A stretch of 64,000 nt of DNA from a virus (IMGVR_UViG_3300048865_000005), one strand, 5' to 3'; positions 10,298-42,199 are shown, counted from the stretch's first letter. Translations and numbers: made by a program. The notes: generated from the letters alone by a model not told the origin.

Positions 10298-10927
10298 ATG
10301 GAAGTTATCGCTATGGCTTCGCGGAAGGGTGGAGTAGGCAAGACGAACACGACCGAGAATTTAGGAGTGGAACTCTCTCGCCGGGGCTATAAAGTGATGC
10401 TACTAGATACTGACGATCAAGGGAGCCTTACGCAGTGGTGGAATGATCGTAAAGAGGAAGAACCCTCATTGATGCAGGTTGAGTTCCAAGAGCTTCCAAG
10501 GGCTTTACAATTGCTCGAAAGTAACGGCTTTGATTACGTGTTAATCGACACTCCCCCAATGGCTAACGAGGTAATACGCTTCGTTACTCGCTATGCGGAC
10601 CTAGTAGTAATTCCCTGTAAAGCTGGTTCCTCTGACCTAAAGGCAATAACCCAGACTATCTCTATCGTCAAAGAAGCCAAGAAGCCTTATGTTTTCCTGC
10701 TGAACGAAGTCATGCCCAACGCTAAAATCACAAAAGACGTAATGATAGCCCTGTCTCAACATGGCAAGCTCTGTCCGATCATCCCGGCACGGACTGTATA
10801 TAAGGAAGCAGGCTTCAGCGGTCTAACACCTATAGATATGCGCGTAAGCTCCCCTGCTTCATTGGAATTCAGACGTTTAGCGGATTACATCCTTAGCGAA
10901 ATTTCAACACTACAAGCAAGTGCTTGA
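10298..10927 (+). CDS. parA: ParA/Soj-family partition ATPase (type Ib-like, no N-terminal HTH)
   Basis: Deviant Walker A box ASRKGGVGKT. About 210 aa. ATG at 10298 with AAGGA RBS (the ORF track's TTG at 10274 is less likely). Flanked by iteron arrays. Confidence 0.8.
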   Translation: MEVIAMASRKGGVGKTNTTENLGVELSRRGYKVMLLDTDDQGSLTQWWNDRKEEEPSLMQVEFQELPRALQLLESNGFDYVLIDTPPMANEVIRFVTRYADLVVIPCKAGSSDLKAITQTISIVKEAKKPYVFLLNEVMPNAKITKDVMIALSQHGKLCPIIPARTVYKEAGFSGLTPIDMRVSSPASLEFRRLADYILSEISTLQASA

Positions 10928-14096: not shown

Positions 14097-14309
14097 TTAT
14101 TCTTCTTCATCTTTAGCTAATAACTCAATTTCTTCAGCTTCCTCTAACTCTCGCTCTAATTGTTCCCACCGCTCTTGTTGAGCCTTCTTGAACTCTTCTT
14201 TCTCTGCTTCTGACATAGCATCCCATTCTTCTTGTTGTTGGGCTAACCGCTCTTCGCGTGCTTTCATAGCACGTTCGTATTCTCTTTTCTTAAATTCTTC
14301 GAGATTCAT
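14097..14309 (-). CDS. highly acidic coiled-coil protein
   Basis: 70 aa dominated by E/K/Q (EEWDAMSEAEKEEFKKAQQERWEQLERELEEAEE). Confidence 0.45.
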   Translation of the reverse strand: MNLEEFKKREYERAMKAREERLAQQQEEWDAMSEAEKEEFKKAQQERWEQLERELEEAEEIELLAKDEEE

Positions 14310-14983
14310 ATATAACTATTTATCCTATCTACACTTAATTCCTGAATCATCAGATGCTCAAATAATCTAAAATAATCTCTTTCTATAGTAATCATTTGTA
14401 GATTATCTGAAACATCCCCTCGTCCACCAAATACATTAAAGCCTCCTCTTGCTTGAGGAATGTCGTAGATAATATGGAAGTCGTCTATCTTAGACGCCCA
14501 ATACACGCTCTTATTTCCTACGAATACTAAATATTTTTTATTATCAAAGAAATAAACATCACACTCTTGCATTGCTCCAACTACTAGACGAATTGCCTCG
14601 TAAGGCCACTGATAACAGAACGTATCATATACTCTAGGTTTTCTCGGTGCCCTAGGTTTTTTCAACTTTTGAACTATCTCTTTATTTTCAATAATTTTTA
14701 TATTATCGATCATTACTGAGATAGTATGCAGAACGTCTTCATGAAACCACTCTGAATACCCATCTTCTTTTTCTAAAATCTCATATTTCCTAGGAAGAAA
14801 TGCTTTATGTAGTTTCTTCTCTAAAGCTAAAGCGGAAGATTCGTCTTCGCACTCTTTATAAAAGCTCTCTTGGAAGTTGAAGCAATTTCCTAACTGATTC
14901 CAGCGATTTTCAAGATTTACAGCTTTCCCAATTTTAACTCTAGGTTCAGTTAAATGTTTCATGAAATAAACAAATGCAGTCAT
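14306..14983 (-). CDS. T5orf172 / GIY-YIG-like domain protein
   Basis: N-terminus FVYFMKHLTEPRVKIGKAVNLENRWNQL matches the T5orf172 (GIY-YIG superfamily) signature. 225 aa. Confidence 0.55.
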   Translation of the reverse strand: MTAFVYFMKHLTEPRVKIGKAVNLENRWNQLGNCFNFQESFYKECEDESSALALEKKLHKAFLPRKYEILEKEDGYSEWFHEDVLHTISVMIDNIKIIENKEIVQKLKKPRAPRKPRVYDTFCYQWPYEAIRLVVGAMQECDVYFFDNKKYLVFVGNKSVYWASKIDDFHIIYDIPQARGGFNVFGGRGDVSDNLQMITIERDYFRLFEHLMIQELSVDRINSYI

Positions 14984-40295: not shown

Positions 40296-40982
40296 ATGAA
40301 TAGTAATAAAGTGTTCAACTCTCAAATAAGAGAAGTTGGTAGCTTCGCTACGCATGTAAGTAATGAACAAATTAAATTAGAACCAATGTTCTTTAATTGT
40401 GATTTGGATTATGCCTACAGTAACGGAGGACTAATTACAAAAGCATTCATAGATACACTTCCAGCTTATTGGTTTCTAGAAGATTGTGTCTTTGATAGTC
40501 GTGTACACATGCTAATGCCGGGGTGGTATCCGGCGATTCCGGGATTTCACCACGACGACGTACCACGTCCAGATATTCCAGTAGGGCAGCACTTTATTAC
40601 AGCAGGGCAACCAGACTACGACAATCCACGATACTACTCGGAACACATCTTAGGGTTAGTTAACGCGGACGTTTGCCCGACAGAGTTTGCTCTAGGTACT
40701 GCCGAGTTCTCACGTATCCCGGATGGTGAATTGATCTACCGGAAATGGCACGAAGAGGTATTGAATCATCTCGAAGCGGGACGAATGGAGCGCTACACCG
40801 CAAAAGACCGCACGCTAATTGAAATGGACTGGCAAACATTCCACCAAGGGACGGCAGCAGTAAGTAACGGTTGGCGATGGTTTGGACGAGTGAGCCGACA
40901 CACCAATAGGGTGAAGAAAGTAACTAACGAAATGAGGCAGCAGGTACAAGTGTACTTGGAGTTTCCTATGGAGGGATGGTAA
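40296..40982 (+). CDS. hypothetical protein, possibly cupin/2OG-Fe(II) oxygenase-like
   Basis: H-x-D (GFHHDD) and a distal His (TFHQG) about 110 aa apart, plus RVSRH. Speculative. Confidence 0.4.
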   Translation: MNSNKVFNSQIREVGSFATHVSNEQIKLEPMFFNCDLDYAYSNGGLITKAFIDTLPAYWFLEDCVFDSRVHMLMPGWYPAIPGFHHDDVPRPDIPVGQHFITAGQPDYDNPRYYSEHILGLVNADVCPTEFALGTAEFSRIPDGELIYRKWHEEVLNHLEAGRMERYTAKDRTLIEMDWQTFHQGTAAVSNGWRWFGRVSRHTNRVKKVTNEMRQQVQVYLEFPMEGW

Positions 40983-41201: not shown

Positions 41202-41252
41202 TGTCAATTAACAAATTAAACATTGTAAAAGTAGTACTTTAAAAGGAGATAT

Positions 41253-41645
41253 ATGGAGTTTCGTAAGTTCAATAGTTTGGAAAATACCTATCGTCAAAAC
41301 CTTATCGAAAAGGTGTTGTTCGAAGGTAAGGGGAAGGGAGAGTGGATTGTAAGTGAGAAGATTCATGGAGCTAATTTTAGCTTCTGGTGCGATGGTAACG
41401 AAGTTAAGGTTGCTTCTCGGACACAATTTGTAGACGGTACTTTTTTCAACTGCCAATCAGTAATTAATAAGTATCACGATGGAATTCTTAAGTTTCACCG
41501 GGAGCGTCTTGAGAAAGGAGATTTGTTGGTAATTTATGGGGAGTTATACGGGAAGAGTGTTCAAAAGGAAGTCGATTACGGTCCAAAAGATTTTAGAGCA
41601 TTCGATGTGCGTCTTATCCGTCAACAAGAGGAGGATGTAGCATGA
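41253..41645 (+). CDS. RNA ligase 2 (T4 Rnl2-like), N-terminal fragment with motifs I and III
   Basis: KFNSLENTYRQNLIEKV...GEWIVSEKIHGANFSF...VIYGELYGKSVQKEVDYGPKDFRAFDV closely parallels the T4 Rnl2 N-terminus. KIHG is the lysine-adenylate motif. Confidence 0.7.
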   Translation: MEFRKFNSLENTYRQNLIEKVLFEGKGKGEWIVSEKIHGANFSFWCDGNEVKVASRTQFVDGTFFNCQSVINKYHDGILKFHRERLEKGDLLVIYGELYGKSVQKEVDYGPKDFRAFDVRLIRQQEEDVA

Positions 41646-42199
41646 TTTTAAGTAAAGATGAAGCATGTCGTGTAAGTCTTGGATGTGGTATTCAATTCAC
41701 ACCTGTATTGTTCATTGGTACGTTCGAAGAGTGCTTGGAAGTAGAGCATGTATTTCGATCCAAACTCACTCCTGAAGATTTTGAAGGGGAGAATGAAGCA
41801 GAGGGGGTAGTAATCGAACCTGTAATTCCGACCTACTTCGATAACGGTAATCGTATTTACTTCAAAAAGAAAACTGAAGCATTCACAGAACGTAAGAAAG
41901 TTCCACGAGTAAAACAAGTAACCCAACTGAACGAAAGAGAGAATGAACTCCTGACTTTGTTGCTTGAATACAGCACAACTCAGCGGGTAAGCAATGTAAT
42001 TAGTAAGTTTGGTACTGTAACTAATAAAGACTTTAATAAGCTTGTCGGTTTAACTATTCAAGATGTTCTCGAAGAGTTCCACAAAGAGAACGATATCGAC
42101 TTGAAAAAAGAAGCTGAAGAGAATTGGCAACGTTTTAATAAGATGTTTGCGGCTGAAGTTGGTAAGACAGTACGCGAGCAATTTCTAAAAGTAATCTAA
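41642..42199 (+). CDS. RNA ligase 2 (T4 Rnl2-like), C-terminal fragment with motifs IV and V plus C-terminal domain
   Basis: AEGVVIEP (motif IV). RIYFKKKTEAF (motif V). NVISKFGTVTNKDFNKLVGLTIQDVLEE parallels the Rnl2 C-domain. Starts at an ATGA overlap with the previous fragment, in a different frame. Confidence 0.7.
   Translation: MILSKDEACRVSLGCGIQFTPVLFIGTFEECLEVEHVFRSKLTPEDFEGENEAEGVVIEPVIPTYFDNGNRIYFKKKTEAFTERKKVPRVKQVTQLNERENELLTLLLEYSTTQRVSNVISKFGTVTNKDFNKLVGLTIQDVLEEFHKENDIDLKKEAEENWQRFNKMFAAEVGKTVREQFLKVI

What the first reader, a model, noticed from the sequence alone, without database searches (positions are those of the whole stretch)
41253..42199. T4 Rnl2-type RNA ligase split into two overlapping ORFs in different frames (ATGA junction)
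The first ORF carries nucleotidyltransferase motifs I (EKIHGAN) and III. The second, starting at an ATGA overlap, carries motifs IV (EGVVIEP) and V (YFKKKTE) and the C-terminal domain. Joined, they align end to end with T4 Rnl2, with the break between motifs IIIa and IV. This is either a frameshift pseudogene, a one-base sequencing error, a programmed frameshift, or a genuinely split enzyme whose halves are translationally coupled. An RNA-repair ligase in a phage suggests defence against host anticodon nucleases, so whether it is intact matters.
Basis: partly seen in the sequence, partly recalled or inferred. Interest (0 to 1): 0.6.

Follow-up and report, generated by a model that had tools for sequence, protein, structure and literature searches.

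The report
RNA ligase gene split in two
An uncultivated phage carries a well-preserved T4 Rnl2-type RNA ligase gene that a one-base frame change cuts into two pieces joined like ordinary coupled phage genes, so it is probably made as a two-piece enzyme, though a recent gene death is not excluded.

Summary
ORF1 (41253-41645, 130 aa) carries ligase motifs I, Ia, III and IIIa. ORF2 (41642-42199, 185 aa, -1 frame) carries motifs IV and V plus the Rnl2 C-domain. They overlap as ATGA, and joined they align end to end with T4 Rnl2. The break lies in a surface beta-hairpin whose length varies across the family (9-16 residues).

A sequencing error is unlikely. The exact 130-aa and 185-aa products are each called on four contigs from at least two runs. 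The 23-nt interval where the frame must change has no homopolymer longer than 2 nt.

A programmed frameshift is unlikely: no slippery site, no RNA structure, no Rfam hit, and all relatives have one ORF.

No decay is visible. All catalytic residues are kept, and the two halves are the most conserved proteins shared with the nearest GenBank phage (66% and 59%, against a median of 41%).

The junction looks like a genuine coupled gene boundary, with AGGAGG 7 nt before the ATG. Only about 0.5% of simulated one-base deletions in intact homologues give anything comparable.

Best reading (about 0.45): a two-piece ligase made by translational coupling. Main rival (about 0.35): a recent pseudogene. No closer relatives exist to decide between them. 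Interest is moderate.

The parts
41243..41248 (+). Shine-Dalgarno AAGGAG of ORF1, 4 nt before its ATG
41253..41645 (+). ORF1, N-terminal ligase piece (130 aa, 15.3 kDa): nucleotidyltransferase motifs I, Ia, III and IIIa
41355..41375 (+). Motif I EKIHGAN: the lysine nucleophile K36 and the Rnl2-signature His at +2
   Evidence: motif definition from PMC1807946
41592..41609 (+). Motif IIIa FRAFDV (F117, D118 equivalent to T4 F119, D120)
41619..41641 (+). Interval in which the reading frame must change (cgtcaacaagaggaggatgtagc). It encodes the tip and second strand of a length-variable beta-hairpin and has no homopolymer longer than 2 nt and no slippery heptamer
41629..41634 (+). Shine-Dalgarno AGGAGG (within GAGGAGGA, 41628-41635), 7 nt before the ORF2 ATG. 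It is built from a GAG-GAG codon pair that is rare in this genome
41642..41645 (+). ATGA: ORF2 start overlapping ORF1 stop (termination-reinitiation junction)
41642..42199 (+). ORF2, C-terminal ligase piece (185 aa, 21.5 kDa): the rest of the nucleotidyltransferase domain plus the Rnl2 C-domain
41801..41821 (+). Motif IV EGVVIEP
41858..41878 (+). Motif V YFKKKTE (K205, K207 equivalent to T4 K225, K227)
41924..42145 (+). Rnl2-specific alpha-helical C-terminal domain (PF18043, ORF2 residues 95-168)

Best explanation
The split is a real feature of the phage genome. An Rnl2-type RNA ligase gene lost one base net, inside the codons of a surface beta-hairpin between motifs IIIa and IV. The old frame now stops at TGA, and an ATG in the new frame overlaps that stop (ATGA). 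A strong ribosome-binding site (AGGAGG, from the Glu-Glu-Asp codons of the hairpin tip) sits 7 nt upstream of the ATG. Ribosomes finishing ORF1 therefore terminate and restart, or fresh ribosomes initiate, at ORF2. This would give a 15-kDa piece carrying the AMP-accepting lysine and a 21-kDa piece carrying motifs IV and V plus the C-domain. The two pieces would co-fold into a two-piece ligase. Shown: the split, its reproducibility, the homology, the intact catalytic residues, the start signals, and the lack of recoding signals. Inferred: that both pieces are made, that they associate, and that the complex ligates.
For: (1) Reproducible. The exact 130-aa and 185-aa products are each called on four contigs, and JGI holds two of them. 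The Logan SRR35925424 contig (88,310 bp) is 100% identical to the window over 20.5 kb. A separate run, SRR35925184, has a 32,762-bp contig spanning window ~26246-59007, which matches the single '20-50 kb' contig counted as carrying both products. (2) The frame change is confined to 41619-41641, where the longest homopolymer is 2 nt. (3) No decay. The window keeps 119 of 132 columns that are at least 95% conserved, including all catalytic residues (K36, H38, N41, R56, E97, F117, D118, E184, K205, K207, R245, D271). (4) The halves are 66% and 59% identical to phage vB_PsaM_M1, the highest of 33 shared proteins (median 41%). A relative-rate test against five outgroups shows no consistent acceleration. 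(5) The junction has AGGAGG at 7-nt spacing, as strong as or stronger than the seven other 4-nt-overlap gene junctions in the neighbouring 20 kb. GAG-GAG is a rare codon pair here, 6 of 105 Glu-Glu pairs. (6) Among 9,511 distinct one-base deletions simulated in 15 intact homologue genes, 46 (0.5%) give a nearby start plus a Shine-Dalgarno match of at least 5 nt, 1 gives at least 6 nt, and none gives an ATG overlapping the stop with at least 6 nt. (7) The break is at the only strongly length-variable spot nearby: the hairpin is 9 residues in 121 sequences, 14 in T4, 15 in L024 and 16 here. In the AlphaFold model it is a loop (residues 123-130) after strand 113-122, and the model matches T4 Rnl2 structures best. 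(8) Direct precedent: in Pfu DNA polymerase a single dA deletion put a TGA stop immediately downstream of an ATG initiation site, and the split enzyme made by coupled translation behaved like wild type. Natural bicistronic gp43 splits also exist in T4-like phages (PMC3061061). (9) No promoter-like or terminator-like site lies between the halves.
Against: No expression or activity data exist. The split is unique: all 119 best database homologues and about 30 complete homologue loci are single ORFs. No relative closer than 62% identity exists, so purifying selection after the split cannot be measured. The break lies inside the nucleotidyltransferase fold, whose sheets draw strands from both pieces, and no natural ligase split there is known to me or was found in the literature. 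The Shine-Dalgarno sequence and the Met codon may simply pre-date a very recent deletion. The C-half deviates more often at conserved columns (11 deviations against 2 in the N-half) and is among the farthest from two of five outgroups. The simulation criteria were chosen after I had seen the junction.
Confidence: 0.45

Rival explanations
1. Recent pseudogene. The frameshift is real but it inactivated the ligase. The gene is dispensable in this lineage and has not yet had time to decay. The good start signals are leftovers of the hairpin's Glu-Glu-Asp and Met codons.
For: Every relative examined has a single ORF. All contigs of this phage are 100% identical, so the event could be very young. 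Rnl2 is an accessory gene absent from many phages (established knowledge). Given the reconstructed ancestor, 5 to 31 of 628 deletions would give this layout, so once the sequence context exists it is not vanishingly rare. The C-half shows slightly more departures from family consensus. Another metagenomic Rnl2 (L058) is also frameshifted.
Against: There is no second lesion in 945 nt and all catalytic residues are intact. The gene is the most conserved one shared with the nearest known phage. The junction quality arises in at most 0.5% of random deletions. The contrast case L058 shows what an unselected frameshift looks like: a G5 run, a 35-nt overlap and no Shine-Dalgarno sequence with ATG at the break.
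Confidence: 0.35
2. Sequencing or assembly artefact. The true genome has one more base in 41619-41644 and encodes an ordinary intact Rnl2 of 315-316 aa.
For: 100 of 104 possible single-base insertions in that interval restore one ORF. All relatives are intact. The JGI and Logan assemblies may derive from the same reads, and read pile-ups could not be inspected.
Against: The identical split is called on four contigs, including contigs from two different SRA runs assembled separately. The interval has no homopolymer longer than 2 nt. Among the 33 window proteins with a vB_PsaM_M1 counterpart, no other gene is broken, so the assembly is not error-prone. An error site would carry a Shine-Dalgarno sequence plus an overlapping ATG only by rare coincidence.
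Confidence: 0.08
3. Programmed recoding. Ribosomes shift -1 (or hop) near the end of ORF1 and make a single full-length ligase.
For: The ORF2 frame is open from 41597, so a 49-nt overlap window exists for a -1 shift. A Shine-Dalgarno-like sequence lies upstream, and such sequences can stimulate frameshifting in some bacterial genes (established knowledge of dnaX and prfB).
Against: There is no X_XXY_YYZ slippery heptamer and no run where P-site re-pairing could occur in 41597-41645. Folding of 41590-41720 gives z = 0.19 against shuffles. No Rfam match reaches E up to 1. No homopolymer exists for transcriptional slippage. The feature is not conserved in any relative.
Confidence: 0.04

Closest known systems
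Bacteriophage T4 RNA ligase 2 (Rnl2, gp24.1; PDB 2HVQ, 2HVR, 1S68)
   Same: All six nucleotidyltransferase motifs, with Lys and His in motif I, and the Rnl2-specific helical C-domain. The joined sequence aligns end to end (E 4e-45). The model's best structural matches are T4 Rnl2. Length is similar (315 vs 334 aa).
   Different: It is encoded as two overlapping ORFs in different frames, broken opposite T4 T131|Y132. It is only about 30-35% identical to T4 Rnl2. Motif IV has EGVVIEP where T4 has EGYVLKP (Glu instead of Lys209), as in its whole clade.
Single-ORF Rnl2 genes of ~85-93 kb myoviruses (Pseudomonas phage vB_PsaM_M1, OP714164, Ounavirinae; many metagenomic contigs)
   Same: These are the nearest relatives, at 55-62% identity over the full length, with similar genome size and a shared structural gene module.
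   Different: All are one ORF of 305-317 aa with a 9-residue hairpin. The window has a 16-residue acidic hairpin and the split.
Split Pfu DNA polymerase 4C11 and natural bicistronic gp43 of T4-like phages (PMC3061061)
   Same: A single-base deletion puts a TGA stop next to an ATG start at a surface tip. Two fragments made by coupled translation form a fully active enzyme. This is the same proposed mechanism.
   Different: It is a different enzyme family. The Pfu case arose in the laboratory and was tested biochemically, and the gp43 splits are conserved across several phages. Here the split is seen in one phage only and is untested.
Genes in pieces created by mobile elements (Aeh1 nrdA split by mobE, PMC3045599; intein-containing Rnl2 in related contigs)
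   Same: An essential-fold enzyme gene in a phage is interrupted yet presumably functional. The Rnl2 gene of this phage group is demonstrably a target of mobile elements: an intein sits in motif I in L027, L042 and L043.
   Different: There is no inserted endonuclease gene, intron or intein at the window's break. The halves abut directly.

Membership tests
Rnl2-type RNA ligase | Motif I KxHGxN with the lysine nucleophile and a His two residues downstream (the Rnl2 signature, PMC1807946) | tested here: met
   EKIHGAN, with K36 and H38 aligned to T4 K35 and H37
Rnl2-type RNA ligase | Motifs Ia, III, IIIa, IV and V, with residues aligned to the T4 positions I recall as essential | tested here: met
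   S55-R56, E97, F117-D118, E184, K205 and K207 are all present. Which T4 residues are essential is from my own knowledge of the Shuman laboratory's mutagenesis, not tested here
Rnl2-type RNA ligase | Rnl2-specific alpha-helical C-terminal domain | tested here: met
   PF18043, E 2e-17, ORF2 residues 95-168. Helices 228-314 in the model. R245 and D271 align with T4 R266 and D292
Rnl2-type RNA ligase | Fold match to solved Rnl2 structures | tested here: met
   Foldseek top hits are 2HVR, 2HVQ and 1S68 (E 3e-20 to 4e-15) for the model of the joined sequence, mean pLDDT 78.9
Rnl2-type RNA ligase | Both domains on one polypeptide of about 300-340 aa | tested here: not met
   Two ORFs of 130 and 185 aa in different frames. 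All relatives are single ORFs
Rnl2-type RNA ligase | ATP-dependent sealing of nicks in duplex RNA through a lysyl-AMP intermediate | not testable with these tools
   Needs biochemistry
Translationally coupled gene pair | Stop and start codons overlapping or adjacent, on one strand | tested here: met
   ATGA at 41642-41645. Seven other 4-nt overlaps occur in the neighbouring 20 kb
Translationally coupled gene pair | Ribosome-binding site at proper spacing before the downstream start | tested here: met
   AGGAGG, 7 nt before the ATG. Only 19 of 123 crude gene starts have a match of at least 6 nt
Translationally coupled gene pair | Both cistrons on one transcript | tested here: inconclusive
   No promoter-like or terminator-like site lies inside 41253-42199, but this was a consensus scan only
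Programmed -1 ribosomal frameshift | Slippery heptamer X_XXY_YYZ in the frame-overlap region | tested here: not met
   None in 41597-41645 (read directly)
Programmed -1 ribosomal frameshift | Downstream stimulatory RNA structure or a known recoding element | tested here: not met
   Fold z = 0.19. No Rfam hit
Programmed -1 ribosomal frameshift | Conservation of the two-frame layout in relatives | tested here: not met
   All relatives are in a single frame
Naturally split (two-subunit) phage enzyme | Break at a surface element that tolerates insertions and deletions | tested here: met
   Hairpin length is 9-16 residues across the family. It is a loop in the model
Naturally split (two-subunit) phage enzyme | Split retained across diverged relatives under purifying selection | not testable with these tools
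   Only 100%-identical copies of this phage exist in the collections

The most novel reading that the evidence does not exclude
This would be a natural two-subunit Rnl2 ligase whose nucleotidyltransferase fold is assembled from two separately translated polypeptides. The lysine nucleophile and motifs III and IIIa would sit on one chain, and motifs IV and V plus the C-domain on the other. It would have been created in one step by a single-base deletion at a hairpin that already carried Shine-Dalgarno-like Glu codons. As far as I know and could find, it would be the first natural split inside the catalytic fold of a covalent nucleotidyltransferase ligase.
Probability: 0.45. Interest if true: 0.5.

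Novelty: new variant of a known kind. Interest (0 to 1): 0.35.

Why it matters
If the halves work together, this shows how a single-base deletion can turn a one-chain enzyme into a two-subunit one without loss, provided it lands at a permissive loop with start signals already in place. It would also mark a permissive split site in Rnl2, a widely used laboratory enzyme, for split-ligase engineering. If the halves do not work, it is an ordinary young pseudogene. For annotation, the two ORFs should be labelled as halves of one Rnl2, not as two ligases.

Tried and rejected
1. Looking for strain variants or close relatives found nothing. Megablast of the locus against GenBank phages gave no match. 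The exact junction pattern is absent from IMG/VR. An anchor pattern allowing an intervening gap of 40-52 nt (46 in the window, 47 if one base were restored) is absent from the metagenome contigs.
2. Using the upstream 228-aa gene as bait for closer relatives failed, because it is a widely spread gene that is ~75% identical in T4-like phages.
3. I considered that a ~20-nt insertion, perhaps the footprint of a mobile element, created the split, because the nearest homologues have a hairpin 7 residues shorter. I dropped this after seeing that long acidic hairpins occur in frame in T4, L024 and L056.
4. Programmed frameshifting or transcriptional slippage: no slippery site, homopolymer, structure or Rfam element.
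5. Recurrent natural splits: six C-half-only representatives of 169-192 aa turned up. Of the four I checked, three were contig-edge artefacts. The fourth (L058) is a frameshift in a G5 run, about 15 residues further into the gene than the window's break, with no start signals at the break.
The Pfam labels on the called genes across the window showed no kinase-phosphatase.
Its alignment was confirmed with the deposited 2HVQ sequence.

Full report
**What is there**

The window holds ORF1 at 41253-41645 (130 aa) and ORF2 at 41642-42199 (185 aa), both on the + strand. ORF2 is in the -1 frame relative to ORF1. The ORF2 ATG overlaps the ORF1 TGA as ATGA at 41642-41645.

- Pfam places the first ~100 positions of the RNA_ligase domain (PF09414, E 4e-16) in ORF1 and the Rnl2 C-terminal domain (PF18043, E 2e-17) in ORF2.
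- PHROG 548 'RNA ligase' is matched at profile positions 1-130 by ORF1 and 149-338 by ORF2.
- The concatenated 315 residues align with T4 Rnl2 (PDB 2HVQ) at E 4e-45. One aligned stretch runs straight across the junction, putting window A130|M131 opposite T4 T131|Y132.
- An AlphaFold model of the joined sequence (mean pLDDT 78.9) finds T4 Rnl2 structures as its best matches.

**Where the frame changes**

Homology to intact relatives holds in the ORF1 frame up to ...FDVRLI (ending at 41618) and in the ORF2 frame from MILSKDEA (starting at 41642). The frame change therefore lies in the 23 nt cgtcaacaagaggaggatgtagc (41619-41641).

- This stretch encodes the tip and second strand of the beta-hairpin that follows motif IIIa.
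- Hairpin length varies in the family: 9 residues in 121 sequences, 14 in T4, 15 in L024 and 16 here.
- Long acidic tips also occur in frame in L024 and L056.
- In the model the junction sits in a loop (residues 123-130) after strand 113-122.
- A net loss of one base explains the layout. 100 of 104 possible single-base insertions in 41619-41644 restore a single 315-aa ORF.

**Is it an artefact?**

- The exact 130-aa and 185-aa products are each called on four contigs, and JGI holds two of them.
- The Logan contig from SRR35925424 (88,310 bp) is 100% identical to the window over 20.5 kb.
- A separately sequenced and assembled run, SRR35925184, contains the same phage in pieces. One piece is a 32,762-bp contig spanning window ~26246-59007. 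It matches the single '20-50 kb' contig that carries both products.
- The critical interval has no homopolymer longer than 2 nt.
- None of the other 33 proteins shared with the nearest GenBank phage is broken.

I could not inspect reads, and the JGI and Logan assemblies may share data, so I leave about 8% for an artefact.

**Is it programmed recoding?**

- The 49-nt region where both frames are open (41597-41645) has no X_XXY_YYZ heptamer and no run that would allow transcriptional slippage.
- The local RNA folds no better than shuffled sequence (z = 0.19).
- No Rfam family matches.
- No relative shares the layout.

I give this about 4%.

**Relatives**

- Nothing in GenBank phages is close at the DNA level.
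- The nearest named phage is Pseudomonas phage vB_PsaM_M1 (89 kb, Ounavirinae). Its RNA ligase is one ORF of 311 aa, 58% identical.
- In the 5.8-billion-protein collection, 119 of the 120 best hits listed (55-61% identical, 305-317 aa, many on 85-93 kb contigs) are full-length homologues. The remaining one is ORF2 itself.
- About 30 complete homologue loci from IMG/VR and metagenomes are in a single frame.

The split is therefore unique to this phage, and no closer relative exists that would allow a dN/dS test.

**Signs of decay: none**

- The window keeps 119 of the 132 columns that are at least 95% conserved in the clade. Most of the 13 departures are conservative.
- All catalytic positions are intact: K36, H38, N41, R56, E97, F117, D118, E184, K205, K207, R245 and D271.
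- Against vB_PsaM_M1 the two halves are 66% and 59% identical, the highest values among 33 shared proteins (median 41%).
- Distances to five outgroups show no consistent acceleration. The N-half is typical. The C-half is among the farthest for two outgroups and average or closer for three.

Either the break is very recent or both halves remain under constraint.

**The junction looks like a real gene boundary**

- AGGAGG (41629-41634) lies 7 nt before the ATG. Only 19 of 123 crude gene starts in the window have a match that long.
- Four-base stop/start overlaps are the house style of this phage: there are seven others in the neighbouring 20 kb. The ligase junction has a Shine-Dalgarno sequence as strong as or stronger than all of them.
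- The sequence is built from a GAG-GAG codon pair, which is avoided here (6 of 105 Glu-Glu pairs, against 51 GAA-GAA).
- I simulated every distinct one-base deletion in 15 intact homologue genes (9,511 in all). Of these, 15% leave some start codon near both the lesion and the new stop, 0.5% also have a Shine-Dalgarno match of at least 5 nt, one has at least 6 nt, and none has an ATG overlapping the stop with at least 6 nt.
- By contrast, the one other frameshifted Rnl2 I found (L058, a 1-kb contig) breaks in a G5 run, with a 35-nt overlap and no start signals at the break.

These numbers favour a lesion that survived because it permits both pieces to be made. The criteria were chosen after I had seen the junction. 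Given this lineage's hairpin sequence, the layout is reachable by 1-5% of deletions.

**Mechanism proposed**

One base was lost in the hairpin codons. For example, GCA ATG ATT becoming GCATGATT would make the joined sequence exactly the ancestral protein. ORF1 translation ends at TGA. The same or a new ribosome starts at the overlapping ATG, helped by AGGAGG. The 15.3-kDa piece carries motifs I, Ia, III and IIIa. The 21.5-kDa piece carries motifs IV and V and the C-domain. Made side by side, they would co-fold into an Rnl2-like ligase.

The precedent is exact in kind. A single dA deletion in Pfu DNA polymerase put a TGA stop immediately downstream of an ATG start site at the finger tip. The split enzyme, made by coupled translation or reconstituted from purified fragments, behaved like wild type. 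T4-like phages also carry natural bicistronic gp43 genes (PMC3061061). Expression, association and activity are all inferred here, not shown.

**Main rival**

The main rival is a young pseudogene of an accessory gene whose good start signals are inherited hairpin codons. I cannot exclude this, because all copies of the phage are identical and no ligase split inside the nucleotidyltransferase fold is known. I put the two-piece enzyme at about 0.45 and the pseudogene at about 0.35.

**Function**

Rnl2-type enzymes seal nicks in duplex RNA, and their C-domain is needed for the nick-adenylylation step (PMC1807946). No tRNA genes and no Pnkp-like partner (weak test; Pfam labels) are present in the window. 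About 24 kb of the 88-kb genome lies outside the window.

**Verdict**

This is a real and reproducible split of a well-preserved Rnl2 gene at a permissive hairpin, with the signals of a coupled gene pair. It is a new variant of a known enzyme if functional and an ordinary pseudogene if not. Interest is moderate (0.35). A simple co-expression and adenylylation assay would settle it.

Noticed in passing
L027 1846-3825 (IMGVR_UViG_3300025728_000009, the same contig as L043 Ga0207655_1000236); also L042 (TARA_R100001143, 91.7 kb) and L041: Related ~91-kb phage contigs carry an intein inside motif I of their Rnl2 gene (EKLHG|C...HN|CNFSF), giving a 659-aa ORF. L027 was read directly and has Pfam Intein_splicing (E 1e-11) plus a LAGLIDADG_2 endonuclease (E 2e-13). 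L043 is the same contig, L042 shows the same two-piece match, and in L041 only the piece from residue 37 on is seen. No paper in the library pairs 'Rnl2' with a natural intein.
   Followed up: partly
window 40296-40982 (+): The 228-aa protein just upstream of the ligase has no Pfam domain (PHROG 1843, unknown function). It is ~75% identical to proteins of T4-like coliphages and 64-70% identical to proteins of Aeromonas, Klebsiella and Stenotrophomonas phages. That is far more than this phage's backbone proteins share with its nearest named relative (median 41% to vB_PsaM_M1). It looks like a widely exchanged, strongly constrained accessory gene.
   Followed up: partly
L058 87-1023 (Logan SRR33299910 contig, 1063 bp): This is a second frameshifted Rnl2, with 141-aa and 181-aa ORFs. 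The break is in a G5 run (atgggggttt) after the helix, with a 35-nt overlap and no Shine-Dalgarno sequence with ATG at the break. It looks like an error or an unselected lesion and serves as a useful contrast.
   Followed up: partly
window, all genes: Glu-Glu codon pairs are strongly skewed: GAA-GAA 51, GAA-GAG 41, GAG-GAA 7 and GAG-GAG 6. This is consistent with avoidance of internal Shine-Dalgarno-like GAGGA inside genes.
   Followed up: no
window 41253-42199 compared with OP714164 33429-34364: The ligase is the most conserved protein between this phage and vB_PsaM_M1 (59-66% against a median of 41%; DNA polymerase is 27% and helicase 23%). This suggests either unusually strong constraint or lateral exchange of the ligase gene.
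   Followed up: partly
window 10298-10927 (+) and 14306-14983 (-): The window encodes a ParA/CbiA-type ATPase (209 aa) and a T5orf172/GIY-YIG-like protein (225 aa) in what otherwise looks like a lytic myovirus genome. There are no tRNA genes in the 64-kb window, whereas vB_PsaM_M1 has at least three.
   Followed up: no
ORF2 residues 97-154 (window 41930-42103): PHROG 27723 is an 88-position profile annotated 'RNA ligase' that matches only the Rnl2 C-domain. This suggests that stand-alone or fragmentary C-domain ORFs are annotated in other phage genomes.
   Followed up: no
L004/L005 (OP714164, whole genome): vB_PsaM_M1 is annotated with many endonuclease genes: three ~1-kb 'endonuclease' CDS plus HNH, intron-associated and other homing endonucleases. 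It also has two separate 'DNA polymerase' CDS far apart in the record. Gene fragmentation by mobile elements may be common in this phage group.
   Followed up: no
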